Below, in pieces: positions 5,825-42,723 of a DNA stretch of 64,000 bases (position 1 is the first letter of the stretch; each line of letters opens with the position of its first letter). Both the position numbers and the translations under genes were made by a program. The DNA is from Phycisphaerales bacterium JB043 (lineage in GTDB: Bacteria; Planctomycetota; Phycisphaerae; Phycisphaerales; UBA1924): contig JBICIA010000003.1 in NCBI GenBank assembly GCA_043101425.1, positions 1-64,000 of the forward strand, in the 5' to 3' direction. The notes under the pieces were generated by a model. The model was given only the letters and a program-made list of their open reading frames with translations, was not told the origin of the DNA and searched no databases.

Positions 5825-7393
5825 TCAGTTGTTCGAGTCGGCTGACTCCTGCTGTCGGACCATCTGGTCGAGCATGGTGCCGATGAGGGCTGTCGTCTCG
5901 GCGTCGCTGGATGAGCCGTTCTCTCCGACGACCATCACGCGCGGCGTGATCTGGATGCCACGCTCGCCCACGATCTTGAGCAGCTCGATCATGGCGGCGT
6001 TGCCGCGCCCGATCTGCTGGGCGATGACGCGGAACGCCTCGGCCTGCGCCTGCGCCTCGATGGAGATCTGCTCGGCCTGCGCCTGGGCGGCGATGATCTG
6101 CTGCTGCTTGGCCTGTTCGGCGATCTGAACCTCGTACTGCGCGGTGGCGAGGCGTTTCTCCTCCTCGGCCTCCTGCTCGGTGCGTGTGAGCGCCTTGCGC
6201 TGCTCGGCGGCGCGCTGCTGCTCCTGGAAGGTGATCTGCTGCTGGAGTGCGATCTCGCGGTCGGTCTGCGTCTTGAGCAGCTCGCCCAGTGTCTGCTCGT
6301 TGCCGACGTCGCCGATGCGCACGCCCGTAACAGTCACGCCGAAGGGCTGCATCTGGCTCGAGATGGCTGACAGCGAGGAGGCCTCCTGAGAGGATCGCTG
6401 CTGGACGTAGTCGAGTGCCTTCTCGCTCTCGGCGTTGTTTCGGAAGACGGAGCGGACGACGGAGTTGAGTCGCTCCTGGAGTCGTGTGCCGTCGTCGCGG
6501 AAGTTGGCGACGACGACGGGTGCGTCCTCGGGTCTGATGAGGTACTCGATGCGCACGTCGACGGGGAAGGTGAAGCCGTCGGAGGATCGGACGGTGATCT
6601 CACGCTGCTCTCCGTCGCCCGTGGCGCGGGCGCCGGCGGTGTAGCGGATGGTGCGCATGTCGGTCGAGATGACGGTGACCTCGTAGGCCTTTGTGTTGAG
6701 GTAGAGCTTCTGCGGCTCGAAGGGGACGTTCCATATGCCGCGTTGTCCTCGGGCGACGAGATGGCCGGCGGTCTGGACGTCGGCAGAGGCGGGCCCCACG
6801 TTGGACTTCACGACGCCGACGGTCGCCTTCTGGATGTTGGTCACGTTGACGCGCTCGATGGCGTAGAGCTTGGGGTTAATCCTGTACTTTCCCGGCGTGA
6901 GGACGGATGTCTGCGGGCCCTTGTAGCCGTTGCCATCGCTGAGGAAGTACTCGGCGTTGAGCATGTTCTGGAACTCGCTCTCCGACCACTCGGGGGCGAA
7001 GACCTCTCCCGCGGGGAGGGGCTTGCCGTCGAGTGCGGTGATGAGGCCGACCTCGTCCTGGCCGATGGTGACGACGGGCGACTGCTCGATCTCGTAGATG
7101 AAGGGCCAGAGCCAGGGATGCCAGCCCGGGGGGAGGATCCTGGCCTGCGGGCCCTTCTCGCCGCCGGTCGCGATGATCTGCCCTTCGGGGAGCGATGTGG
7201 TGCCGACGTTCTTGATGACCACGCCGATGGAGTCGTCGCCGACGAGTCGGAACGACGAGAGCGTGAACGCGATCAGCAGCACGACGACCGCGCCGAGCAC
7301 CGATGGGAGTCGCAGTGGCTTTGGCGTCTTTGGGATCGAGACGAGTATCCCGATGGCGATGAAGACACCGAGCATGAGAATGATGGCAGACAT
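5825..7393 (-). CDS. SPFH/band-7 (flotillin-like, YqiK family) membrane protein
   Basis: N-terminal TM, SPFH core, then a long EA-rich coiled coil (QQQITFQEQQRAAEQRKAL...AQAQAEQISIEAQAQAEAF). RBS AAAGGAGGG precedes the ATG. Confidence 0.85.
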   Translation of the reverse strand: MSAIILMLGVFIAIGILVSIPKTPKPLRLPSVLGAVVVLLIAFTLSSFRLVGDDSIGVVIKNVGTTSLPEGQIIATGGEKGPQARILPPGWHPWLWPFIYEIEQSPVVTIGQDEVGLITALDGKPLPAGEVFAPEWSESEFQNMLNAEYFLSDGNGYKGPQTSVLTPGKYRINPKLYAIERVNVTNIQKATVGVVKSNVGPASADVQTAGHLVARGQRGIWNVPFEPQKLYLNTKAYEVTVISTDMRTIRYTAGARATGDGEQREITVRSSDGFTFPVDVRIEYLIRPEDAPVVVANFRDDGTRLQERLNSVVRSVFRNNAESEKALDYVQQRSSQEASSLSAISSQMQPFGVTVTGVRIGDVGNEQTLGELLKTQTDREIALQQQITFQEQQRAAEQRKALTRTEQEAEEEKRLATAQYEVQIAEQAKQQQIIAAQAQAEQISIEAQAQAEAFRVIAQQIGRGNAAMIELLKIVGERGIQITPRVMVVGENGSSSDAETTALIGTMLDQMVRQQESADSNN

Positions 7394-7482
7394 TGATGCC
7401 CTCCTTTAGCAGTTGGGTTGTGTGGCACGAACCACCGCCACGTCTGTCTTCTGGTTGGGATTGTACCCGCGCGGTTTTGTGT

Positions 7483-7520
7483 GCGACGTGTCCGGGTTCG
7501 GGGGTGATCGGACACGTCGC
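7483..7520. other. Perfect 12-bp inverted repeat (GCGACGTGTCCG N14 CGGACACGTCGC)
   Basis: Seen directly between the ubiD-like stop and the flotillin promoter region. No T-run follows on either strand. Confidence 0.5.
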
Positions 7521-7533
7521 GCGGCGCACTGAG

Positions 7534-9570
7534 TTAAGGATCAGGGAAGTACTCGTTCCATCGTGACGTGACGAGCTGCTTTGTGTCTTCGTTGGCGCAC
7601 AGCACGTCGGGCCAGTCGCGTACCGGCATGTCGTTGATCGAGTCGGCGTGGTGCTTCGGGCGCGCGTCGAAGGCGATGCGGCTGTCGAAGTGGAGGCAGT
7701 CGCGCGAGGGGTCGATGTTGGCGACCCAGTGGAAGAGCGCCATCTCGAGATCGTCGACGGGCACGTCGGTCCCGAGCACGATGGCGAACCTCGGCGAGTG
7801 CGCCGGGAGCAGGTCGAGCGTTGATGCCAGTGATTCGCGAGACATGGAGTTGTCGACCCAGAGCAGGAGCCACGCGTGGTCGAGTTCCGCGGGCATGGAG
7901 ACGCGGGCGATGTGCTCGTGCTCGAGCAGTGTCGCGGTGATCGTCGCGCGCGCGTCGTTGTCGAGCGGCTTGTAGGGTGTGTGTCCGAATCCTGGTGCGC
8001 CTGCGCGCGTGCGTGTGGCGTCGAGTCCGATCTTGCCGCCGGCGCCGAGGTGGGTGGAGGCGTGGTCGAGGATGTCGAGCGGGCCGAGCGTGTGCTCGAT
8101 GTCGGAGGATGGGTGGCAGTGTGTGGAGATGGCGCGCAGGACCTCGAAAGGGTTGTGCACGTCGACGTCGTTGTCGACGACGACGACGAGCTTCGTCCAC
8201 GACATCTGTCCGGCGCCCCAGACGGCGTGCATGATGCGGCGCGCGTGGAGGGGGTACTGCTTGTCGATCCTCACGAAGGCGGCGTTGTGGAAGGCGCCGA
8301 ACGTCGGCAGGTCGTAGTCCTCGATGTCGGGGGCCGTCGTCTTGAGCAGCGGCAGGAAGATGCGCTCGACTGCCTTGCCCATGGGGTAGTCCTCCTGGAC
8401 GGGGAGCCCGACGATTGTGGCGGGGAAGATGGGCCTCGTGCGCATCGTGATCGCGCTGACCTCGAGCAGGGGGTAGCGATCGGGGAGGGAGTAGAAGCCG
8501 GTGTGGTCACCGAAGGGGCCCTCGAAGAACGCGCCTGGACCGAGCGTGTCGTGCGTGGGGTCGCGTGGGTCGAAGCCTGGTGTTCCGGCCTCGTGTGAGA
8601 CGTGTCCCTCGATGATGATCTCCGCGTTGGCGGGCACGCGCAGCGGGACGGTGATGGCGTGGCACATGCGGATTCCGCGACCGTTGAGAAAGCCTGCGAG
8701 AAGCAGCTCGGAGATGCCCGGCGGGAGCGGGGCGATGGCGCCGAATGGGAGCACCGACTCGCCCCCGAGCGCGATGGCGACGGGCATGGGTTTGCCCTTT
8801 GCTTTCCACGAGCGCCAGTGCGCCGCGCCGTCGTGGTGCATGTGCCAGTGCATGGCCAGGTGTCTGGGCGAGACGAGCTGGAGACGGTACATGCCGACGT
8901 TGTGCGAGGAGGGTTTGGGGTTCCTGTCGTCGTCGGCGTGGATGGTGTGGACGCCCGCGAAGGTGATGTATCGCCCGCGGAAGAAGGGATCGGCGCGGAG
9001 TTCTGCGCCGGGGACGCTGTCGTTGATGTCGGGCGGGTAGCCGACCGCGCCGAGGTCGCCGTCGTGGGGCCAGCAGGTGATCAGCGGGAGGCGCGTCAGG
9101 TTGATAGCGTCACCAGTAAGGACGATCTCCTGGCACGGGCCGGTCTTGACTGTCTTTGGGGGGATGCGCATGAGCGGCGCGAAGCGCCTCAGCGCGCTCC
9201 ATATCTCAGCGAGGGAGCGCGGCGGCTCGGGTTTGATGAGCTGCGCGATGCGGTCGGCGATGGACGACAGCCCGCCGGTGGTGTCGCACCCGAGCGCCAT
9301 CTCGAGCCGGTGGTAGGAGCCGAGCGAGTTGATGAGGACGGGGATGTCGGAGCCCTCGACGTTCTCGAAGAGGAGGGCGTGCCCACCGAGCACTCCGTGC
9401 GCTCTGTCGTTGTCGAGTGTCGATGTGTCGGGTGGGTGTGGGCAGAGCGATTTGACGACGCGATCGGTGATGTGGGCGATCTCGAGAACTGGCGAGACGG
9501 GGGCTTTGATGCGTCTGAGCTCGCCCGCGCGATCGAGCGCGCTCACAAACTCTCCCAACGAGGAGTGCAT
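7534..9570 (-). CDS. UbiD-family (prenylated-FMN dependent) decarboxylase with ~180 aa C-terminal extension
   Basis: N-terminus LGEFVSALDRAGELRRIKAPVSPVLEIAHITDRV aligns with the UbiD start (LRDFL..LE..GELKRI..PVDP.LEI.EI.DR). Total 678 aa versus ~490 typical. Confidence 0.85.
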   Translation of the reverse strand: MHSSLGEFVSALDRAGELRRIKAPVSPVLEIAHITDRVVKSLCPHPPDTSTLDNDRAHGVLGGHALLFENVEGSDIPVLINSLGSYHRLEMALGCDTTGGLSSIADRIAQLIKPEPPRSLAEIWSALRRFAPLMRIPPKTVKTGPCQEIVLTGDAINLTRLPLITCWPHDGDLGAVGYPPDINDSVPGAELRADPFFRGRYITFAGVHTIHADDDRNPKPSSHNVGMYRLQLVSPRHLAMHWHMHHDGAAHWRSWKAKGKPMPVAIALGGESVLPFGAIAPLPPGISELLLAGFLNGRGIRMCHAITVPLRVPANAEIIIEGHVSHEAGTPGFDPRDPTHDTLGPGAFFEGPFGDHTGFYSLPDRYPLLEVSAITMRTRPIFPATIVGLPVQEDYPMGKAVERIFLPLLKTTAPDIEDYDLPTFGAFHNAAFVRIDKQYPLHARRIMHAVWGAGQMSWTKLVVVVDNDVDVHNPFEVLRAISTHCHPSSDIEHTLGPLDILDHASTHLGAGGKIGLDATRTRAGAPGFGHTPYKPLDNDARATITATLLEHEHIARVSMPAELDHAWLLLWVDNSMSRESLASTLDLLPAHSPRFAIVLGTDVPVDDLEMALFHWVANIDPSRDCLHFDSRIAFDARPKHHADSINDMPVRDWPDVLCANEDTKQLVTSRWNEYFPDP

Positions 9571-32883: not shown

Positions 32884-33897
32884 TTAGTGCACGACGTTCG
32901 CGTACGGATCGCCCGTGAATGAACTGCCGCCTGAGGAGCCGAAGATCCCAGCCGCGTTTGGTGCGGCAACGACGTAGCACTTGTTGTTCACCGCGGTCGA
33001 GAACGCTGTTCCGGCGTTTTCGACCACATTCCGGACGATCAGATTGTCGGACGACAAGACCCTTATGCCGGTACCAGCGAACGAGATCGTGTTCGAGTCG
33101 ACGACGTTGCCACCGAAGCCGGCTACGTCGATGCCGTAGCCCGAGCTAGTCCCGATGATCTTGTTGCCCTGCACGATGGTGTCGAAGTTGTTGGGCAGAT
33201 ACACACCCCGTGCGGTGCTTGGCAGGCCGGCGTTGGTGTTGGGGCGTGTGATGTGGTTGTCGATAATGTGGCAGCGTGATTGTGCCTGGATGGCTGCACC
33301 GGTCACGCGATCGATGACGCACTCGCGTACCACGGAATCGGCCGTCACGAATATGCCCCCTGTGTTGGAGGCGGTTGTTCCGGTTGCGCTCACATAACAA
33401 CGCAGGATCTCGGCGCCGAACGCGCCGCCGAGGATCTCGATGCCCCAGCTGCCGCAGTTGAGGACTCTTAGGTCCTCAAGTCGGCCAGAGTCGGTCGAGA
33501 TGCTGATCCCCTGGTTGGCGAAGTTTCGCACGCTGCCGTTCTCGATCACCACGTCGGCAAGAAAGGCGGCTGTCCTGATGCCGATGGGCGCCGAGCCGGC
33601 GCCTTCGAGGACAAATCCGTTGAGATCGAGCGTGACACTGCTGGCGGCGATCCGTATGCCGTTCTTGCCGAACTCGGCCGCTAGGTTATCTGTCAGGTAG
33701 TAGGACCCGGGCTGGGTGATGATAAAGGTGTCGGTCGCGTCGCCCGGCGTGTTGGTCGCGTTGATCGCGATTCTCGGCTCGACCTCGGTGAGTGTTTTAT
33801 AGGTCGGATCCGTCGGCGCACCAGGCGGCGAGAGGGGGCCCGCGAGAGTGGGTGCGCCGACAGCGAGCACGAGAGTGGTTACGAACAGAGTGCGCAT
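32884..33897 (-). CDS. Secreted right-handed parallel beta-helix repeat protein (paralog A)
   Basis: Signal peptide MRTLFVTTLVLAVGAPTLAGPL. Repeated G/N/T-rich beta-helix rungs. Shares its N-terminal motif with 36448..37701. Confidence 0.65.
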   Translation of the reverse strand: MRTLFVTTLVLAVGAPTLAGPLSPPGAPTDPTYKTLTEVEPRIAINATNTPGDATDTFIITQPGSYYLTDNLAAEFGKNGIRIAASSVTLDLNGFVLEGAGSAPIGIRTAAFLADVVIENGSVRNFANQGISISTDSGRLEDLRVLNCGSWGIEILGGAFGAEILRCYVSATGTTASNTGGIFVTADSVVRECVIDRVTGAAIQAQSRCHIIDNHITRPNTNAGLPSTARGVYLPNNFDTIVQGNKIIGTSSGYGIDVAGFGGNVVDSNTISFAGTGIRVLSSDNLIVRNVVENAGTAFSTAVNNKCYVVAAPNAAGIFGSSGGSSFTGDPYANVVH

Positions 33898-34120
33898 TGA
33901 TGTCTCCTCCGAGAGGTTGGATGTGCGTCCATCTTAGGATGTTGGGCGTTCGTCCTATAGGAAAAAGTTTGGGATATGGGACGTGTCTGCGAGCGCTGGT
34001 GCGCGGTGTGCGCGCGCGATCGCGATTTGTCATTTTGTTCTTGACACCGATCCGGCGTCGGATACTCTCGGAGCGGAGTCAGAATCCATCTTTCGGGAGA
34101 GTGTGATCATGCGCACAGGG

Positions 34121-34726
34121 ATCATTCTCACGGCCACTGTTGCTGTGGTTTCATCGTTCTCGTCGAGCGGCGACACGCTCGTCATCGAGACATCCAGGTC
34201 GTGGAATTTCAGTGATGCTGGGATGAACAACGGGTTCTCCTCGCTGTCGTCGCAGCTTGTCGATCGTGACGACGACGTGCTGCTGGACAACGGCAAGGAC
34301 CCGGCGATGCACGAGCTGACGGTCGTGCGGATCGGGCTCGCACAGGACATCGTGATATCGAACTACGTGGTTGACGGGGGCGGGGTGCAGGTGGTGACGT
34401 TCTTCACCGCGATGTCGTTCACCGACAGCGCGGGAACGGGGACGGGCATCGGTGTCAACACGGCTGCGTTCACGACGACGGGCAGCGCGATGACCATCGA
34501 CGACTGGAACGCGCTGAGCATCATGCTGGACCCGTCGATCTACGATGGCACGGGGACGGTGTCGGTGACTCCGCAGATCGACTCGAACCTCAACGGCGCG
34601 AGTGGCGGGCTGGCGTTGTTCAATGGCGAGTTTCGCGTGCAGTACACGTGGGAGGTGATTCCGTCGCCCGGCACGATGGCGATGCTCGGGATGATGGGGG
34701 TGATGGGATCGCGCCGGAGGCGGTAG
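34121..34726 (+). CDS. Secreted protein with PEP-CTERM-like sorting tail (PSP variant)
   Basis: C-terminus VIPSPGTMAMLGMMGVMGSRRRR (proline-rich motif, hydrophobic helix, Arg cluster). N-terminal signal-like segment MRTGIILTATVAVVSS. Confidence 0.55.
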   Translation: MILTATVAVVSSFSSSGDTLVIETSRSWNFSDAGMNNGFSSLSSQLVDRDDDVLLDNGKDPAMHELTVVRIGLAQDIVISNYVVDGGGVQVVTFFTAMSFTDSAGTGTGIGVNTAAFTTTGSAMTIDDWNALSIMLDPSIYDGTGTVSVTPQIDSNLNGASGGLALFNGEFRVQYTWEVIPSPGTMAMLGMMGVMGSRRRR

Positions 34727-34797
34727 CGGGAGCGTGTGAGTTGGCATTCTGAAAGCCCGGGCCCCCTCTGACGTAGAATGGGGTCGAGGGCTCTGCC

Positions 34798-35364
34798 ATG
34801 ATCCAGTTCACGTGTCCAAAATGCGGCGGAAGGCTGAGCGGTGACGAGAGCAACGTCGGCGCGTCGATCGAGTGCCCGTCGTGCCAGAACGTGAGCGTGG
34901 TGCCCGCGCACTCGGTGGCGCCCGAGCGTTCCGCGCCGGCGCGTGTGGTGGTGCAGCGGACGGGTGTGCCGTACACGTTGAAGGTGGCGCTGGCGTTCTT
35001 CCTGGCGGGCTTCGTGGTGATGTTCTGGTACATGCTGATGACGGACCCGGCGACGGTCTCCGAGGAGGAGTTCGCGGCCCATGGGTTTGTTGGGTTCGTC
35101 ACGCTGCCGACGGTGCCGGCGTCGATCGTTGGGCTGGTGGCCGCGTTCAAGCGTCGCTGGTGGGGGGCGATCGTGTTCTCGATCTCAGAGGGCTTCGCGC
35201 TGCTGCTGTATGCGGCGCTGATCGCCGGGTTCGGATGGCACACGGGCGACGGCCTGCAGGTGCTGGTCGCGGCGTCGTCGATCGTGTTCGTGCTGCACAA
35301 GGAGAGCCGCGCGTATTACGCGACGCGTCGAGTGAGTCCCGGCCGTGGTCTCGCCCACGCGTGA
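34798..35364 (+). CDS. Zinc-ribbon (CxxC...CxxC) membrane protein, hypothetical
   Basis: N-terminus FTCPKCGGRLSGDESNVGASIECPSCQN then 4 TM segments. Confidence 0.5.
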   Translation: MIQFTCPKCGGRLSGDESNVGASIECPSCQNVSVVPAHSVAPERSAPARVVVQRTGVPYTLKVALAFFLAGFVVMFWYMLMTDPATVSEEEFAAHGFVGFVTLPTVPASIVGLVAAFKRRWWGAIVFSISEGFALLLYAALIAGFGWHTGDGLQVLVAASSIVFVLHKESRAYYATRRVSPGRGLAHA

Positions 35365-35376
35365 GTATTTTAGAGA

Positions 35377-36237
35377 TCAGCGTCTGCGCGTTGCGAGCGA
35401 GAGCCCGAGTATGAGGGCAAGTCCGGTGGAGGGTGAGGGAACAATCACGCTCTCCCAGTCTGCGCCGGAACTCGATGAGATCGAGGAGTACGTGACATCC
35501 GTTGATCCGATCTTGACCGAATCGGTGCCGAGCCACTGGAAGGTGTTGAGCAGGTTCATTTCCGAGGTGCGTGCACCGGAGATGCCATCGTCGATGTTTG
35601 ATGAGTCCGAGTATGCAAGGATGTTGCCGACGAATGGTGTGTCGTGTCCGAGCGTGACCTGGAGTGTGACCTGATAGATGCCGAACGGGTCTCCCGTGTA
35701 GCCGGTGTTGGGGTCATGCTGGGCTGCGTAGAAGGGCGATGAGCTGATGTCAGTGCTCATCTGCAGGTTCCACAGCGTGAGCGCTCGGTTCTGTCCCGAG
35801 GGATCCACAGCACTGGATGCCCCCGTGATAGCGAACGAGAACGTCCAGTCGGCGACCGTTCCTATATTGGCCGGGTTGGTCGGATTGATGTTGACTGTGT
35901 CGGACCAATCCAGCACGGCGCTCGCGGAGCCTGAGCCGTTGCGTGACGAGGATGTTGGTGAGACGCTCGCGGAGGTTTGCAGGCGGGCGAAGCCGAATGT
36001 GGCGAGCACCGATGATTGGTAGTCGTACGCCTCGCCGCGTGCGCCGATGCCCGTCGATGTAGCGGACACAGAGATCGGCCCGGTTGGGCCGCGCTGGGAA
36101 TCAAAGTCGTTGACCAGCGGCGTGAACGTGCCGAAGAACTGCGAGTCCGATGATACGAGCAGCTCGTGCTGCGCGATTGCACTGCTTGTGCAAGCGAGCG
36201 TGATCGTAACAACGACGGCGATGCGTGCGTGTGCCAT
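35377..36237 (-). CDS. Secreted protein with PEP-CTERM-like sorting tail (PSP variant)
   Basis: Signal MAHARIAVVVTITLACTSSAIAQ. C-terminus VIVPSPSTGLALILGLSLATRRR. Start set at the MAHARIA Met (36237); upstream in-frame part discounted. Confidence 0.55.
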   Translation of the reverse strand: MAHARIAVVVTITLACTSSAIAQHELLVSSDSQFFGTFTPLVNDFDSQRGPTGPISVSATSTGIGARGEAYDYQSSVLATFGFARLQTSASVSPTSSSRNGSGSASAVLDWSDTVNINPTNPANIGTVADWTFSFAITGASSAVDPSGQNRALTLWNLQMSTDISSSPFYAAQHDPNTGYTGDPFGIYQVTLQVTLGHDTPFVGNILAYSDSSNIDDGISGARTSEMNLLNTFQWLGTDSVKIGSTDVTYSSISSSSGADWESVIVPSPSTGLALILGLSLATRRR

Positions 36238-36447
36238 ACGACTTCTCCTCGGTGTCGTCGGGGATGCCTCTGTGCGGTGCAGGCCATCCTGAATCATAGA
36301 GAATGTTCTGCCCCAAAAACAGGAAAAAGTAGAGAATCCAGACACGCGGATTGCACGAGTACGCAGCGAGGCACGCTGTGGAAGAATCGATCTCACACAG
36401 CATCTCGGGCGCGGAAGTAGACCACGCGTTCCAGTACGGGGTGTGCT

Positions 36448-37701
36448 CTACTTCAACAGATTCACGATCACGTTCGTGGTTGCCGCGGTCGCTGTCCCCG
36501 GTGTGGTGAGGTCTTCGATGTCGCCAAATGTCGTGTCGGTGCTCGTGCTCCACGAGCCGGACCCGATGGTGTTCCTGATGAAGACGGTGCCGGTTCCGAG
36601 GATGAACATCGTGGTGTGATCGCCGATGTCGTTGTTCTCGATACGGTTGTCCAAGCCAGACGAGATGCCGATGAATCCGTTGGAGCTTGTCAGGCATCCT
36701 CTGACAAGATTGCCATCGCCGACGCGGATCCCGCGGTTGCCGTTCGAGCGGGTGATGGAATCGAGGACCGATCCCTGGTCGTTCATGAAGATGCCATAGA
36801 CGGTATTGCCGGTCGCGACGCAGTCGCGGATGGTTGTTCCGTCTCCCGCCTGGATGCCGTAATTGGTGTTGTTGAACGCGGAGCACTCGCGGATAACGGA
36901 GTTGACGCCAACGTCGAAGCCTCCAGCGGTGTTGCCCGTGGCGATGCACTCGGAGAGCACGGAGGTCTCGCCGAGCGAGAAGCCCTGCGTGGAGTTGGCG
37001 GTCGCGATGCAGCCGGTCAGCCTCGATGATGTGCCCGAGCCGAAGCCGGCACCGCCGGTGTTGAGCTCCGCGATGCAGTCAACGAACAGGCTCGAGGTGG
37101 CCTCGGAGTAGAAGCCGTCTGCGCCGTTGTCCCTCGCCTCCGATCGGAAGAACGAGGCGGACGTGCCATCGACCCATGCGCCTCTGTTGGTGTTGGAGTT
37201 GAACGTGCTGTCGAGCACGCGGATCGTCGAGGTCGGGTCTACCACGCGCAGGCCGTCACCGCACTCCGAGACCACGACGTCGCGCACCACGTGCGACTGC
37301 CCGGCGTTCACAAGAATGCCCGTGCCCGCTGCCTTGATGATCGAGCCGCTGTGGATTGTCGCGCTGTCGTGGTCGACAACGATGCCCGCGTCGGAGGCGC
37401 CCGAGCCACCGAGGATGCGGTACCCGTTCAGATCGATGGTCACGTTCGGCGCGTCGATGAGGATCGCGTGCTGGCCGGTGTCGGCCTTGATCTCGCCGGT
37501 CAGGTAGTACGAGCCATCGGTCGAGATGCGATGCAGCGCGCCGCCGCCGGTGGGTGCCGTGGTGAGATTGATCGGCCTACGCGGCTCGACCTCGGTGAGC
37601 GTCTTGTGGGTCGAGGTGAGTGCGCCGGGCGGCGTGAGCGGGCCGGCGAGCGCGGAGGTGGTTGTAACGAGTGCGAGTGCGATGGAAAGCAGATGGCGCA
37701 T
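36448..37701 (-). CDS. Secreted right-handed parallel beta-helix repeat protein (paralog B)
   Basis: Signal MRHLLSIALALVTTTSALAGPL. Repeated xGNTxxG/NNTxxG rungs. The N-terminal AGPLTPPGALTSTHKTLTEVEPRRPINLT is shared with paralog A. Confidence 0.65.
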   Translation of the reverse strand: MRHLLSIALALVTTTSALAGPLTPPGALTSTHKTLTEVEPRRPINLTTAPTGGGALHRISTDGSYYLTGEIKADTGQHAILIDAPNVTIDLNGYRILGGSGASDAGIVVDHDSATIHSGSIIKAAGTGILVNAGQSHVVRDVVVSECGDGLRVVDPTSTIRVLDSTFNSNTNRGAWVDGTSASFFRSEARDNGADGFYSEATSSLFVDCIAELNTGGAGFGSGTSSRLTGCIATANSTQGFSLGETSVLSECIATGNTAGGFDVGVNSVIRECSAFNNTNYGIQAGDGTTIRDCVATGNTVYGIFMNDQGSVLDSITRSNGNRGIRVGDGNLVRGCLTSSNGFIGISSGLDNRIENNDIGDHTTMFILGTGTVFIRNTIGSGSWSTSTDTTFGDIEDLTTPGTATAATTNVIVNLLK

Positions 37702-37797: not shown

Positions 37798-38247
37798 CTA
37801 GTGCCCTTTGCAGTGAGCCTCGACCTCGATCTCGATCATGAACTCGGGCAGGGCGAGGCCCTTGACCTCGATCCACTTACCGGTCGGGAAGCGCGTGCCG
37901 TAGATTTCTGACCTATAGCTGGACGCCTGGAGCATCTGCGCCATGTCGGTGGTGAAGATGCTCTCGGAGACGACGTGGTCGAACGTGCAGCCGTAGTAGC
38001 TCAGGCTCTCCTCGATGTCCTGGTAGCAGTTGCGCATCTGCTGTGCGAGATCGCCCACCGCGGTAGGGTTGCCCTCGTCATCCATGCTGACGGCACCCGA
38101 GATCTTGATGGTGTCGCCTATGCGCACGGCCTGTGTGTATCCATAGGCGTCCTCGACCGCGGGGCGCAGCTTGAAGACCTCGGGGGTGTGCGTCGAGGCG
38201 CAGGCGGTCAGGAGAAGGGTGAGAGTGATAAGGCTGATGGTGCGCAT
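37798..38247 (-). CDS. RidA/YjgF-family protein with lipoprotein signal
   Basis: Lipobox LLLTAC. RidA core YTQAVRIGDTIKISG...EVKGLALPEFMIEIEVEA. Confidence 0.8.
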   Translation of the reverse strand: MRTISLITLTLLLTACASTHTPEVFKLRPAVEDAYGYTQAVRIGDTIKISGAVSMDDEGNPTAVGDLAQQMRNCYQDIEESLSYYGCTFDHVVSESIFTTDMAQMLQASSYRSEIYGTRFPTGKWIEVKGLALPEFMIEIEVEAHCKGH

Positions 38248-38330
38248 GGGGGGCTCCGGATGTGTGTGTGAGGGGATTGTAGTGAATTATCATGTGTTTA
38301 CCGATTGACTGGAGTGACAATACAAACTAG

Positions 38331-39065
38331 CTAATGACTCAAATACGTGCGAATCTCGTTTACAAATATTGTTTCGCTAGAATCTAGCCAACCAAAATGC
38401 TCCATAAAAAATTGAATAGCTTTAAGAGAATTTTGTTCGATGGTGCCTCCGAGTGCGTCACCAGTACTGGCAAATTCATATTTAATGCTTTCACAGGCGG
38501 TCTCAAAATAATCATGCCATAGACGATTCTTTGGCGCCATCAATGCCGTACGCTGAATTTGACGGAGTTCTATCGATACCTTCATCGTTAAGTGTGGATC
38601 CAATTTAATTGCGAGACGAGAGGAGAATAAGTACCAAAATATTATTTGTCTTAGAATTTGTTCAATATCTAAAAATTGCGGAGAGTCTGCCGCCTCAAAT
38701 CGCTCTCTTCCGAAGACAATGCAGTCTTCCGCGCGGCTTATTAGTTCCTCTTGCCAGCCCTCATTGGAGATTTCGATGGGTGTACGCATGTACACAAATT
38801 GACCGGACATATGGAGCCTGCAATAGCTGTCTGCAGTGTATGGGTCATATGCTGGCGAGACCCATCCTTCACCAACATCAAATTGGGTTCTCGCTCTAGG
38901 TAATTCTGGAAATTCCCATCTCGCGTAGTGTATTTGGCAGTCCTGGAGAAGCTGCCGCGCATCTCGGTTGCCGCCAATGAGATCGTCTGCTTTCGTAGTA
39001 GGGTGTAACCTCATTAGCCAATGTGGTCCCTCCTTGATTAGCTCTGCTCGCTCAGGAAGACTCAT
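38331..39065 (-). CDS. Island gene 3: hypothetical protein (244 aa) with no recognisable domain
   Basis: ATG overlaps the stop of the upstream AlbA_2-like gene (ATGA). Low GC like its neighbours. Sequence MSLPERAELIKEGPHWLMRLHP...W/Y/F-rich. Confidence 0.6.
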   Translation of the reverse strand: MSLPERAELIKEGPHWLMRLHPTTKADDLIGGNRDARQLLQDCQIHYARWEFPELPRARTQFDVGEGWVSPAYDPYTADSYCRLHMSGQFVYMRTPIEISNEGWQEELISRAEDCIVFGRERFEAADSPQFLDIEQILRQIIFWYLFSSRLAIKLDPHLTMKVSIELRQIQRTALMAPKNRLWHDYFETACESIKYEFASTGDALGGTIEQNSLKAIQFFMEHFGWLDSSETIFVNEIRTYLSH

Positions 39066-39742
39066 TTCAGGAACTCCTCAATCTCACGATCATACTCTTC
39101 CCCGTCTGGGGGGATTGCTTGCTCATTAAGAAGGCCCACTCGAGTGGCGGTACTGATGAACTGGCGGGTCCGTTTTTCTGCAGCCAAGTCGAGAATCTCA
39201 CGTAGTTCATGAGAAGTTTGTACTTTCTCAGTCCGAGGCCGCCCTCGAGGCCTGAAGTACATGGTGCCATTTTGCAATTCTTGTTCGAACGAGCGTTTGC
39301 ATACGGTTGGAATCTCACGAAATTCTTGGGTATGAATAACAATCAACGTGTTGCCATCGAGTTCAATTGCGACAACGGATACATCTAAGGGTGGATCGGC
39401 AAATTTATTAATTTGGTCGATCACAACATCTGTGTCATAAGTAGCGATAACGTTGTCGTCTACACCAGTTATTGTTACTTGATCATCACGTTCAGATATA
39501 CCTATTACTACAATACCCCCGTCGCGAAGATTTGACATTGCTAAGCAAGTGCGTGCTACTCGTGCTGACAGTGTTGACCAATCTTGGCTCTCTTTAAACT
39601 CAATTGATTGTGTTTCCTCTAGTCGTCCGACAGCGAATCGAGTGCGCTCGACAAGTTCTTGGTGCGACTCAGCGGTTACGATCGGCGGCCTAGCCATCGA
39701 AAAGATCTTAGCGTGCTTGCGAGCAAGCCCCAACCAGTCCAC
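39062..39742 (-). CDS. Island gene 2: AlbA_2/Schlafen-like putative nucleic-acid-binding domain protein
   Basis: LEETQSIEFKESQDWSTLSARVARTCLAMSNLRDGGIVVIGISERDDQVTITGVDD fits the AlbA_2 (PF04326) pattern E-x-EFK...AfaN..GG.iviGv.d. GTG start at 39742; ATG alternative at 39697. Confidence 0.6.
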   Translation of the reverse strand: MDWLGLARKHAKIFSMARPPIVTAESHQELVERTRFAVGRLEETQSIEFKESQDWSTLSARVARTCLAMSNLRDGGIVVIGISERDDQVTITGVDDNVIATYDTDVVIDQINKFADPPLDVSVVAIELDGNTLIVIHTQEFREIPTVCKRSFEQELQNGTMYFRPRGRPRTEKVQTSHELREILDLAAEKRTRQFISTATRVGLLNEQAIPPDGEEYDREIEEFLK

Positions 39743-39757
39743 TCACTAACGGCTAGT

Positions 39758-40396
39758 TCAAGATTGCGAGGATGATTGGTAAGCCTCAATTTCATCCGCC
39801 CATGCATAGCCTTCGTAGGTCACGTCAAAAATCTCGCCTTTGTAGCCCACTGCTGACACCAATCCATGGTCAAGCAACTGCTCTAGCCCTGCAGCGTATC
39901 TACGATATTCACGGGGGCCTATGAGTCGTTCTTCAATACTAACCTTCCCAGCTTGTATGGTGCCCCCTCCAAAAGTAGTGAGCTTTGAGATAATAGGATG
40001 GGTTTGCCTGCATGCGTTTACTAGTAACTCTGCCGCCGCGCTAGATAGATTCAGAACTAGATCAGTGACCGTGGTTTCGGCTGCCACAAATTGCTCTTGT
40101 ACAACTACTGGAGTTACGCTAGGTAACGTACCGTTTTCGACAAGATCGATTACATGATCTCGGCATTGTTTAAGTTCATTTTCGGTGAATCTCCGAGTGA
40201 ACGGTACATTTGCATGTACGTCAATGTGACAGCTTACGCAGATTGCGATTAGATTGTCTGGCTCATCTAGCCCTCCCTCTGAAACGGGTTTTATGTGATG
40301 CACCTGCAAGTGCAAGGGCTTAAACCGACGACACAAACAACAATGACGCCCACACATCGACAGAAGATGGTCAACATGCTTTTGTGGAATAGTCAT
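39758..40396 (-). CDS. Island gene 1: HNH endonuclease domain protein with ~150 aa uncharacterised C-terminal domain
   Basis: CGRHCCLCRRFKPLHLQVHHIKPVSEGGLDEPDNLIAICVSCHIDVH (CxxC...HH...N...CxxCH). RBS AAGGAA 11 nt upstream of the ATG. Confidence 0.75.
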   Translation of the reverse strand: MTIPQKHVDHLLSMCGRHCCLCRRFKPLHLQVHHIKPVSEGGLDEPDNLIAICVSCHIDVHANVPFTRRFTENELKQCRDHVIDLVENGTLPSVTPVVVQEQFVAAETTVTDLVLNLSSAAAELLVNACRQTHPIISKLTTFGGGTIQAGKVSIEERLIGPREYRRYAAGLEQLLDHGLVSAVGYKGEIFDVTYEGYAWADEIEAYQSSSQS

Positions 40397-40417
40397 TGTG
40401 TACAGTTCCTTTCTAAA

Positions 40418-40452
40418 TCAAAAAGGCCGACACCCTTTCGGATGCCGGCCCT
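40418..40452 (-). terminator. Rho-independent terminator of groEL (minus strand)
   Basis: Minus strand: GGCCGGCATCC-gaaa-GGGTGTCGGCC followed by TTTTTGATTT. Confidence 0.6.
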
Positions 40453-40503
40453 TTGGTTAACTGATCGAGATGTGCCTACAAGTAGGCTTCATCGTTAGGT
40501 TCC

Positions 40504-42141
<1,638 letters not shown>

Positions 42142-42399: not shown

Positions 42400-42723
42400 T
42401 CAGTCGAAGGTGGCGAGGATCTCGTCCTCGGACATGATGAGCACCTCGTCGCCCCCGACCTTGATCTCGGTGCCGGAGTAGGAGGTGAAGATGACGCGGT
42501 CGCCCTTCTTGAGGGTCATGGGGATGCGCTCGCCCGTGTCGTGGTTGAGCGCGCCGGTGCCGACGGCGAGGACGACGCCGGTCTTGGGTGTGTCCTTGGC
42601 GCCCTCGGGGAGGTAGAGGCCCGAGTCGGTCATGGTCTCGGCCTCGTCGCGCTGGACGATGACCTTGTCGCCGATGGGCGTGATGTTGACGTTGATCTTC
42701 TTGCTCTTTGTTGCCGTTGCCAT
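42400..42723 (-). CDS. groES: Co-chaperonin GroES (10 kDa)
   Basis: KINVNITPIGDKVIVQRDEAETMTDSGLYLPEGAKDTPKTGVVLAVGTG...GDRVIFTSYSGTEIKVGGDEVLIMSEDEILATFD. Confidence 0.95.
   Translation of the reverse strand: MATATKSKKINVNITPIGDKVIVQRDEAETMTDSGLYLPEGAKDTPKTGVVLAVGTGALNHDTGERIPMTLKKGDRVIFTSYSGTEIKVGGDEVLIMSEDEILATFD

What the first reader, a model, noticed from the sequence alone, without database searches (positions are those of the whole stretch)
38280..40500. Low-GC three-gene island (HNH nuclease - AlbA_2/Schlafen-like - unknown) wedged between groEL and ridA: candidate novel defence module
Seen: a ~2.2 kb block at roughly 40-45% GC inside a ~68% GC chromosome. It holds three co-oriented genes that are tightly coupled (15-bp gap, then an ATGA overlap). 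No integrase, transposase or tRNA is nearby. Inference: compact nuclease plus nucleic-acid-binder plus unknown partner operons of foreign composition next to housekeeping genes are the typical signature of anti-phage defence or abortive-infection systems. It could also be a toxin-antitoxin or addiction module. The combination HNH(N-term)+novel C-domain / AlbA_2 / orphan 244-aa protein does not match any defence system I can name (not Zorya, Gabija, Septu, Lamassu, Kiwa or Shedu layouts), so it may be undescribed.
Basis: partly seen in the sequence, partly recalled or inferred. Interest (0 to 1): 0.85.

Follow-up and report, generated by a model that had tools for sequence, protein, structure and literature searches.

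The report
Split Schlafen defence pair plus HNH nuclease
A small piece of foreign DNA next to the chaperonin gene of a Phycisphaerales bacterium carries two separate candidate anti-virus modules, not one three-gene system: a Schlafen-type RNA-cutting enzyme with a conserved but uncurated partner protein, and an unrelated stand-alone DNA-cutting enzyme.

Summary
A 2.26-kb block (38248-40503, minus strand) has 46.5% GC against 64% for the window. GC3 is 0.41-0.42 in its three genes against 0.88-0.95 in groES, groEL and ridA. The domain calls hold: HNH, SLFN_AlbA_2 and an unannotated 244-aa protein.

The three-gene interpretation does not hold. Genes 2 and 3 form a conserved two-gene cassette. 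In 52 genome loci from many phyla, the gene-3 homolog is directly preceded by a gene-2 homolog in 44, usually with 4- or 1-nt stop/start overlap, and is fused to it in 3. None of the 52 loci has the gene-1 HNH.

Gene 2 carries the Schlafen catalytic Ex4(E/D)xK motif. Prokaryotic Schlafens were shown in 2025-2026 to be anti-phage tRNases fused to sensor domains. The gene-3 domain matches no Pfam, NCBIfam or PADLOC model and has no close solved fold. It is also found fused to TIR domains, so it behaves as a portable sensor or regulator.

Gene 1 is HNH plus a winged helix. It belongs to a separate family of solitary genes whose winged helix also pairs with TIR or DUF4062.

Verdict: a mini defence island holding a split variant of the known prokaryotic Schlafen (pSlfn) kind. 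No function was tested.

The parts
38248..40503 (-). Low-GC foreign block between the groEL stop codon and the ridA start codon.
   Evidence: GC is 0.465 against a window mean of 0.640 (sd 0.035). It is the lowest 2256-bp window in the 64 kb.
40420..40454 (-). Intrinsic terminator after groEL: an A-tract, an 11-bp GC-rich stem extended to 15 bp, a GAAA loop and a U-tract. It ends 24 nt before the g1 ATG.
   Evidence: RNA fold gives -30.1 kcal/mol, z = -5.1, and 0 of 200 shuffles fold as well. The sequence was read.
39758..40396 (-). g1: 212-aa HNH nuclease with a C-terminal winged helix.
   Evidence: Pfam HNH scores 36.6 bits. A family of about 90 full-length homologs exists at 36-49% identity. 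The AF2 model has pLDDT 88.
40121..40396 (-). g1 HNH domain (residues 1-92), with invariant C15/C19/C20/C22/C53/C56, H33-H34, N48 and H57/H61.
39761..40069 (-). g1 winged-helix domain (residues about 110-212), after a disordered linker (residues 97-110).
39698..39757 (-). 60-nt g1-g2 spacer containing the palindrome GCTTGC-TC-GCAAGC (39715-39728).
   Evidence: Sequence shown. Its function is not known.
39062..39697 (-). g2: 211-aa prokaryotic Schlafen (SLFN_AlbA_2) nuclease, the putative effector.
   Evidence: Pfam scores 56 bits. The family alignment is A5. The best PDB sequence relatives are CbCash and SLFN11.
39593..39616 (-). Schlafen catalytic motif E28-x4-E33-x-K35 of g2 (EETQSIEFK).
   Evidence: E28 and K35 are invariant, and position 33 is E or D in the family rows displayed (one in two of the 45). 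The motif aligns with ESQSIEFK of SLFN11 and E-x4-D-x-K of CbCash. It is defined as catalytic in PMC13056530.
38331..39065 (-). g3: 244-aa partner protein from an uncurated family, the putative sensor or regulator. Its start overlaps the g2 stop (ATGA).

Best explanation
The block is a horizontally acquired mini defence island that holds two independent modules.

**Module A (g2+g3)** is a split version of a prokaryotic Schlafen (pSlfn) system.
- g2 is the Schlafen-type ribonuclease effector.
- g3 is a translationally coupled partner. I propose that it binds g2 and keeps it inactive until it senses an infection cue.
- On activation, g2 would cut tRNA or other RNA and stop translation, giving abortive or growth-arrest immunity.

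**Module B (g1)** is a solitary HNH DNA nuclease tethered to a winged-helix domain. It is a member of a separate effector-plus-winged-helix family.

**What is shown.** The foreign composition, the conserved pairing and fusion of g2 and g3, the catalytic motif, the swapping of the g2 position for TIR, and the independence of g1 are all shown here.

**What is inferred.** Physical interaction of g2 and g3, the sensor role of g3, the RNA target, and any anti-phage phenotype are inferred by analogy with characterised pSlfn proteins.
For: **Foreign origin.**
- GC3 is 0.41-0.42 in all three genes against 0.86-0.95 in the neighbours.
- Across other genomes the g2-g3 cassette is GC-poorer than its flanks in 42 of 51 loci, with a mean difference of -7.4 points.

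**g2 and g3 form a conserved unit.**
- Homologs of g2 in L004 and L005 are followed by proteins homologous to g3 (BLASTP 5e-32 and 9e-34).
- In 52 GTDB genome loci from at least 10 phyla, 44 have g2 directly upstream of g3. The junction is -4 nt in 21 loci, -1 nt in 9 and 0 to +5 nt in 10. Three more loci are fused.
- Of 14 long family representatives, 11 are Slfn+g3 fusions.
- g2 and g3 pairwise identities correlate at r = 0.82. g3 is the more divergent partner in 932 of 1128 pairs. The same conserved-nuclease, variable-sensor pattern is reported for pSlfn5.

**Effector identity.**
- PF04326 scores above its gathering threshold.
- The Ex4(E/D)xK motif is conserved in the family and aligns to SLFN11 and to the CRISPR-associated Schlafen CbCash.
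- pSlfn proteins are experimentally shown anti-phage tRNases with variable sensors (PMC13056530; PMC13552941; the abstract of PMC13462974).

**The g3 domain is portable.**
- It is fused to TIR_2 in P0180 and P0245 (70 and 76.6 bits).
- It is fused to a weak nucleoside-deoxyribosyltransferase-like domain in P0193.

**Defence context in some loci.**
- A type II restriction-modification pair lies next to the cassette in L004.
- A GmrSD_C gene lies next to it in L039.
- A DISARM-like gene set lies next to it in L032.

**g1 is independent.**
- No g1-type HNH occurs in any of the 52 loci.
- g1 homologs are solitary in six distinct contexts.
- Neither the g1 nor the g3 family is found full-length in 2.9 million viral contigs.
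Against: - No function was tested.
- Immediate neighbours of the cassette in 52 loci are mostly housekeeping genes. Only a handful are defence genes, so enrichment in defence islands is modest and was not quantified rigorously.
- The window's g3 is a divergent member. It averages 22% identity to the family and differs at two nearly invariant positions (R at 49 instead of G, C at 82 instead of W).
- No promoter-like site was found on the coding strand, and a strong terminator sits just upstream of g1. Expression in this genome is therefore unproven.
- The three genes have identical GC3 and are adjacent. A TIR protein with the g1-type winged helix also abuts a Slfn-g3 fusion in L032. A loose functional link between the two modules is therefore not excluded.
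- The sensor and antitoxin roles of g3 cannot be told apart from sequence alone.
Confidence: 0.6

Rival explanations
1. A type II-like toxin-antitoxin or addiction module. g2 is an RNase toxin and g3 is a labile antitoxin that neutralises it by binding. The pair would stabilise the DNA that carries it, or respond to stress, without sensing phages specifically.
For: - The pair consists of two small co-directional genes with 4- or 1-nt stop/start overlap in 30 of 44 loci.
- It inserts at scattered sites among housekeeping genes.
- It is GC-poor relative to its hosts.
- Some genomes carry several copies, for example three loci in OZ251525.1 and two in CAYPOT01.
Against: - The putative toxin gene comes first, and g3 has no recognisable DNA-binding domain for autoregulation.
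- Stable single-chain fusions of the two exist. These fit a sensor-effector switch, as in fused systems, better than a degradable antitoxin.
- The same g3 domain is fused to TIR.
- All characterised pSlfn proteins are phage-triggered defences.
- The two models overlap mechanistically.
Confidence: 0.2
2. One reading: g1, g2 and g3 form one three-component defence operon in which the HNH nuclease works together with the Schlafen protein and its partner.
For: - The three genes are adjacent and on the same strand, with indistinguishable GC3 of 0.42, 0.41 and 0.42.
- In L032 a TIR protein carrying the g1-type winged helix lies directly downstream of a Slfn-g3 fusion. This is a second adjacency of the two families.
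Against: - None of the 52 g3 loci has a g1-type HNH within about 8 kb. Only 1 of 52 has the g1-type winged helix, even at E <= 1 with filters off.
- None of six g1-family contexts has a Schlafen or g3 gene.
- The g1-g2 spacer is 60 nt, whereas g2 and g3 overlap.
- L032 is a dense defence island, where adjacency of unrelated systems is expected.
Confidence: 0.07
3. g1 is a selfish, homing-type free-standing HNH endonuclease that targets sites next to highly conserved genes. It, rather than defence selection, explains why the block sits immediately after groEL.
For: - g1 lies 107 nt after groEL.
- Two divergent homologs lie between dCTP deaminase and class II ribonucleotide reductase, with overlapping stops and starts (L001 and L146). 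This placement is reminiscent of free-standing homing endonucleases, which is my own background knowledge.
- The HNH gene is GC-poorer than its flanks in L001 and L146.
- Its closest PDB sequence relative is a group II intron maturase HNH.
Against: - No full-length family member was found in 2.9 million viral contigs.
- Other contexts are not next to conserved genes (L002, L142 and L144).
- The winged helix is shared with TIR and DUF4062 proteins, a pattern typical of defence effectors.
- No empty site or target duplication could be found.
Confidence: 0.12

Closest known systems
Prokaryotic Schlafen (pSlfn) anti-phage systems, for example RorSlfn5 and EcoSlfn7 (Perez Taboada et al., Nat Microbiol 2026, PMC13056530)
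   Same: - g2 has a PF04326 nuclease domain with the Ex4(E/D)xK motif.
- The nuclease is paired with a variable, faster-evolving accessory domain.
- The distribution across phyla is patchy and the genes are GC-atypical.
   Different: - Here the accessory domain is usually a separate, translationally coupled gene (44 of 52 loci) rather than a fusion.
- The accessory domain matches no Pfam family.
- The same accessory domain is also fused to TIR.
- The fused form may correspond to the paper's 'TBP-like' (1.5%) or 'unannotated fusion' classes. I could not check this because the supplementary tables are not held.
- No experimental data exist for this clade.
Cash, CRISPR-associated Schlafen (PDB 9ylu; PMC13462974)
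   Same: It is the best PDB sequence match to the g2 family profile (E 8e-4 over profile positions 21-152), with the E-x4-D-x-K motif aligned.
   Different: - Cash is fused to a Csx15 sensor for cyclic oligoadenylate and works downstream of type III CRISPR.
- No CARF or Csx15 domain, and no CRISPR array, is present here.
Fused toxin-antitoxin defence proteins such as CapRel(SJ46) (my background knowledge)
   Same: The logic is the same. A toxic enzyme is held in check by a covalently or non-covalently attached domain that doubles as a phage sensor, and both split and fused forms exist within one family.
   Different: - The folds and chemistry are unrelated.
- No trigger is known here.
EcoKMcrA and Cap5 HNH nucleases
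   Different: - g1 lacks the McrA N-terminal 5mC-binding domain and the Cap5 SAVED domain.
- It has a C-terminal MarR-like winged helix instead.
- It has no full-length match to any PADLOC or NCBIfam model.

Membership tests
Prokaryotic Schlafen (pSlfn) defence nucleases | A PF04326 (SLFN_AlbA_2) domain scoring above the gathering threshold. | tested here: met
   g2 scores 56 bits against a cutoff of 25.3.
Prokaryotic Schlafen (pSlfn) defence nucleases | The catalytic Ex4(E/D)xK motif. | tested here: met
   The motif is E28-TQSI-E33-F-K35. E28 and K35 are invariant, and position 33 is E or D in the displayed rows of the 45-member alignment. It aligns with SLFN11 and CbCash. The motif is defined.
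Prokaryotic Schlafen (pSlfn) defence nucleases | The nuclease is coupled to an accessory, putative sensor domain. | tested here: met
   The g3 domain is adjacent in 44 and fused in 3 of 52 loci. 11 of 14 long family representatives are Slfn+g3 fusions. The coupling is mostly in trans, which differs from the characterised members.
Prokaryotic Schlafen (pSlfn) defence nucleases | Location in defence islands, meaning a known defence gene within about 10 kb. | tested here: inconclusive
   Clear cases are L004 (restriction-modification), L039 (GmrSD_C) and L032 (DISARM-like plus TIR). Most immediate neighbours in the 52 loci are housekeeping genes. In the window, the only candidate neighbour is g1.
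Prokaryotic Schlafen (pSlfn) defence nucleases | Phage-triggered tRNA cleavage and protection from phage. | not testable with these tools
   This needs cloning, plaque assays and tRNA sequencing.
HNH (His-Me finger) nucleases | A beta-beta-alpha-metal core with catalytic His and Asn and zinc-binding Cys pairs. | tested here: met
Type IV (McrA-like) restriction enzymes and other catalogued HNH defence proteins (PtuB, ZorE, DpdF) | A full-length match that includes the family's specificity or partner domains. | tested here: not met
   PADLOC hits cover only about 30-60 residues of the HNH core. The C-terminal domain is a winged helix. No partner genes such as PtuA or ZorA-D are present.
Free-standing homing endonucleases | Residence in phage or mobile-element genomes, with insertion between conserved genes and an identifiable empty target site. 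| tested here: inconclusive
   No full-length homolog was found in viral contigs. Insertion next to conserved genes is seen in the window, L001 and L146 but not in the other contexts. No empty site could be recovered.
Type II toxin-antitoxin modules | Two small co-transcribed, translationally coupled genes. | tested here: met
   The window has an ATGA overlap. 30 of 44 loci have a -4 or -1 nt junction.
Type II toxin-antitoxin modules | An antitoxin with a DNA-binding domain, and neutralisation of the toxin by the antitoxin. | tested here: inconclusive
   No HTH, RHH or AbrB fold is found in the confident g3 model. Neutralisation is not testable here.
   None of 52 g3 loci has the g1 HNH. None of six g1 contexts has g2 or g3.

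The most novel reading that the evidence does not exclude
The g3 family would be a previously uncurated, portable infection-sensor or switch domain with a duplicated beta-alpha-beta4-alpha, TBP-like topology.
- It would control interchangeable effectors of at least three classes: the Schlafen RNase, TIR and a nucleoside-deoxyribosyltransferase-like domain.
- It would act either in cis as a fusion or in trans as a separate, translationally coupled subunit.
- That would make g2-g3 the first split, two-subunit Schlafen immune system.

A lower-probability add-on (about 0.1) is that effectors tethered to the g1-type winged helix (HNH here, TIR in L032) cooperate with this pair, and that placement behind groEL couples expression to the stress response by terminator read-through.
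Probability: 0.35. Interest if true: 0.65.

Novelty: new variant of a known kind. Interest (0 to 1): 0.5.

Why it matters
Schlafen nucleases link human and bacterial antiviral immunity, and the open question is how their accessory domains sense infection.

A clade in which the accessory domain is a separate subunit gives a tractable system. The same domain is also wired to TIR effectors. That allows three things:
- separating sensing from catalysis;
- swapping effectors;
- looking for the trigger.

The analysis also carries a practical lesson for genome mining. Uniform foreign composition and tight spacing do not make an operon-level system, and comparative context split this 'three-gene module' into two independent units.

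Finally, it identifies two uncurated domain families as candidates for defence-system catalogues: the g3 domain, and the g1-type winged helix that is shared by HNH, TIR and DUF4062 proteins.

Tried and rejected
**Empty-site test.**
- An exact-sequence look-up of the RidA-like protein found only the source sample, with the same island.
- GroES was not on record.
- A metagenome scan with RidA returned 80 loci at 58-73% identity. None has groEL, groES, the beta-helix gene or any island gene nearby. Synteny is lost at that distance, so the test is uninformative.

**Insertion scars.** No credible flanking direct or inverted repeats were found. The only longer repeats lie inside the groEL and ridA coding sequence and look like chance.

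**Known-system matches.**
- PADLOC, NCBIfam and Pfam gave nothing for g3.
- Scanning all 54 aligned g3 family members against Pfam gave one marginal hit.

**Word-seeded homolog search.** It returned only a self-hit for g3. This would have wrongly suggested an orphan. The exhaustive HMMER search overturned it.

**Phage origin.** Viral-contig scans for the g1 and g3 families were negative for full-length relatives.

**Hidden RNA component.** Rfam gave only a sub-threshold Moco-riboswitch hit lying on the terminator hairpin, which I judge spurious.

**Fold assignment of g3.**
- Foldseek's best hit is E 0.08 to TBP.
- Neither is significant.
- The AFDB library was unavailable.

**Prior cataloguing.** The supplementary tables of the pSlfn paper are not held, so I could not check whether the fused form is already listed there.

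**Promoter scan.** No sigma-70-like site was found on the coding strand. Planctomycete promoters may not fit that consensus.
Full report
**1. The observation**

The region is as described, but on the minus strand.
- Reading in the direction of transcription, the order is groES (42400-42723), groEL (40504-42141), g1 (39758-40396, 212 aa), g2, g3 (38331-39065, 244 aa) and a RidA-like lipoprotein gene (37798-38247).
- Names attached to identical database proteins identify the source as a Phycisphaerales MAG, JB043.
- The sliding-window GC falls from 0.62-0.70 to 0.39-0.52 between about 38250 and 40500.
- The block 38248-40503 is 46.5% GC. It is the lowest of all 2256-bp windows in the 64 kb (mean 0.640, sd 0.035).
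- Third-codon-position GC is 0.418, 0.406 and 0.420 for g1, g2 and g3. It is 0.934 for groEL, 0.954 for groES, 0.880 for ridA and 0.856 for the beta-helix gene. All three genes are therefore clearly foreign and compositionally indistinguishable from one another.
- No tRNA gene occurs in the window. None of the main ORFs within about 10 kb is an integrase or transposase.

- The host GC is 64%, not 68%.
- g2 starts at the ATG at 39697 (211 aa), as in the NCBI and Logan gene calls and in the family alignment. The g1-g2 gap is therefore 60 nt, not 15.
- The ATGA overlap between g2 and g3 is correct.

**2. Domain content**

- Pfam confirms HNH in g1 (residues 19-62) and SLFN_AlbA_2 in g2, and finds nothing in g3.
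- PADLOC gives only short matches to the HNH core of g1, a weak 14-bit hit for g2, and nothing for g3.
- NCBIfam adds nothing.

**3. g2 and g3 are one conserved unit**

- The word-seeded search found only g3 itself. The exhaustive HMMER search found 133 cluster representatives.
- The closest g2 homologs on contigs are each followed by a 242-245-aa protein that is homologous to g3 (5e-32 and 9e-34).
- A scan of one genome per GTDB species with the g3 alignment gave 52 loci. They come from Planctomycetota, Nitrospirota, Desulfobacterota, Chloroflexota, Acidobacteriota, Actinomycetota, Latescibacterota, Elusimicrobiota, Mesorhizobium and Thiodiazotropha.
- With my own family HMMs, 44 of these loci have a g2-family gene directly upstream on the same strand. 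Three have the two in one ORF. The remaining five are two solitary g3 genes and three contig-edge cases.
- The junction is -4 nt in 21 loci, -1 nt in 9 and 0 to +5 nt in 10.
- Fourteen long family representatives carry the g3 domain at their C-terminus. Eleven have SLFN_AlbA_2 at the N-terminus, two have TIR_2 (70 and 76.6 bits) and one has a weak nucleoside-2-deoxyribosyltransferase-like match. P0226 is a truncated Slfn-g3 fusion.
- Pairwise identities of g2 and g3 across the same locus pairs correlate at r = 0.82. g3 is the more divergent partner in 932 of 1128 pairs.
- The cassette is GC-poorer than its flanks in 42 of 51 loci.
- Immediate neighbours are heterogeneous and include no recurrent third gene.

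**4. What g2 is**

- The g2 family has invariant E28, K35, N56, G60-G61 and D90. In the alignment rows displayed, position 33 is E or D. That gives E-x4-(E/D)-x-K.
- The family profile aligns this motif to ESQSIEFK of SLFN11 and to the equivalent motif of CbCash, which is the best PDB sequence hit.
- Perez Taboada et al. define exactly this motif as the catalytic signature of prokaryotic Schlafen nucleases. They show that two such proteins protect E. coli from phages and that one is a phage-triggered tRNase. They describe 55 fusion architectures plus 558 clusters of unannotated fusions.
- A second group independently found a Schlafen-domain defence protein. It notes that the prokaryotic Schlafens characterised to date are fused to their sensors, although its own protein has a C-terminus with no known domain.
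- Cash is a Schlafen activated by cyclic tetra-adenylate from type III CRISPR systems (abstract).

**5. What g3 is**

- The AlphaFold model built from a 54-sequence alignment is very confident (pLDDT 94.9, pTM 0.91). It shows two beta-alpha-beta(n)-alpha halves.
- Foldseek finds nothing significant, but its top hits are nearly all TATA-binding proteins. That fits a duplicated TBP-like topology.
- This raises the possibility that fused members fall in the 'TBP-like (1.5%)' class mentioned by Perez Taboada et al. I could not verify this because the supplementary tables are not held.
- Conserved residues are mostly aromatic or core residues plus R83, S87, Q89, E98 and R150. There is no obvious catalytic constellation.
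- The constant g3 domain combined with interchangeable Slfn, TIR or NDT-like partners is the pattern expected of a sensor or regulatory module attached to swappable effectors.

**6. What g1 is**

- g1 belongs to a family of about 210-aa proteins with full-length homology.
- The family has a highly conserved, Cys-rich HNH core, a variable linker and a conserved C-terminal domain.
- The model (pLDDT 88) has a disordered linker at residues 97-110.
- By sequence, only the HNH core matches solved proteins: a group II intron maturase, McrA and IscB.
- Family members sit alone in varied contexts. Two lie between dCTP deaminase and class II RNR (L001 and L146). One lies after a pentapeptide protein (L002). 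One lies in an island with a PriCT_2 primase, a KAP NTPase and DUF4062 (L144). One lies among small unknown genes (L142). One lies near thrS-infC (L143). None has a Schlafen or g3 gene nearby.
- None of the 52 g3 loci has a g1-type HNH, even with an HNH-only profile.
- The winged-helix domain is shared with a DUF4062 protein (42% identity) and with a TIR protein in L032. g1 therefore looks like one member of a second effector-plus-constant-domain family.
- Full-length members are absent from viral contigs.

**7. The one hint of linkage**

- In L032 the TIR-winged-helix gene lies immediately downstream of a Slfn-g3 fusion. This mirrors the window's order of HNH-winged helix followed by Slfn and g3.
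- L032 is also a dense defence island. It holds an MmeI-type TRD, a helicase, an MZB/DUF1998 protein and a PLD protein, which is a DISARM-like set. Adjacency there may simply reflect clustering.
- One locus in 52, plus the window, is too few to argue for a functional link. I keep it as a low-probability possibility.

**8. Expression signals**

- A strong intrinsic terminator (15-bp stem, GAAA loop, U-tract; -30.1 kcal/mol; z = -5.1) lies at 40420-40454, 24 nt before the g1 ATG.
- No sigma-70-like promoter is predicted on the coding strand.
- Whether the island is expressed by read-through from groESL or from an unrecognised promoter is unknown.
- Rfam finds no RNA element.
- No flanking repeats mark the insertion.
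- Attempts to find an island-free groEL-ridA junction failed.

**9. Conclusion**

- The island is real and foreign, and it is best read as two juxtaposed candidate defence modules.
- Module A (g2+g3) meets the sequence-level criteria for the pSlfn class. It differs in being split into two translationally coupled genes, and in using an uncurated partner domain that is also wired to TIR.
- The most likely mechanism is a Schlafen RNase held in check by, and activated through, the g3 subunit. This is inferred by analogy, not shown.
- A plain toxin-antitoxin reading remains a serious rival and overlaps with this mechanism.
- Module B (g1) is an unclassified HNH-winged-helix nuclease. Its role, whether restriction-like defence or selfish endonuclease, is open.
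- The overall classification is a new variant of a known kind, of moderate interest.

Noticed in passing
L001:643-5829 and L146:5405-10184: Two divergent g1-family HNH-winged-helix genes (49% and 36% identical to g1) are each wedged between dCTP deaminase (DCD) and class II ribonucleotide reductase. Their stop and start codons overlap those of the neighbours, and they are GC-poorer than their flanks. This may be a recurrent insertion site or a link to nucleotide metabolism.
   Followed up: partly
L032:26-9961: This is a dense defence island in a Planctomycetaceae MAG. It reads MmeI-type TRD, 1201-aa helicase, MZB/DUF1998 protein and PLD nuclease (a DISARM-like set), then a Slfn-g3 fusion (7314-8711), then a TIR protein with a g1-type winged helix (likely start near 8783).
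   Followed up: partly
L039:6964-8702: A solitary g3 homolog (7959-8702) has no Schlafen gene upstream. A 203-aa GmrSD_C (DUF1524) nuclease gene lies there instead (6964-7575). This may be another effector swap in the split configuration. L020 has a solitary g3 homolog right after dnaE.
   Followed up: no
L037, L039 and L050 (all on OZ251525.1); L008 and L011 (both CAYPOT01): Single genomes carry two or three separate copies of the g3-family cassette. Tepidiformaceae (Chloroflexota) are over-represented among the hits.
   Followed up: no
window 40397-40503: The groEL-g1 spacer is itself AT-rich (GC 0.48) and contains the groEL terminator. The terminator may therefore have arrived with the island or be shared with it. 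The g1 ATG follows the U-tract by 24 nt, and no promoter-like site is present.
   Followed up: partly
window 39715-39728: A perfect 6+6 palindrome, GCTTGC-TC-GCAAGC, lies in the 60-nt g1-g2 spacer. It could be an operator or a small hairpin.
   Followed up: no
window 38331-39065 (g3 residues 49 and 82): The window's g3 has R instead of the nearly invariant G at position 49 and C instead of W at position 82. It averages only 22% identity to the family, whereas g2 averages 35%. It is an unusually divergent member.
   Followed up: partly
L144:6716-10565: A g1-family HNH gene is followed by a KAP NTPase gene and lies near a DUF4062 protein and a PriCT_2/AAA_25 primase. KAP NTPases were recently linked to anti-phage defence (PMC13552941).
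   Followed up: no
window 32884-37701: The host flank holds several secreted beta-helix/NosD-like proteins. One ORF (33983-34726) ends in a hydrophobic stretch followed by RRRR, which looks like a PEP-CTERM-type sorting signal. This appears unrelated to the island.
   Followed up: no
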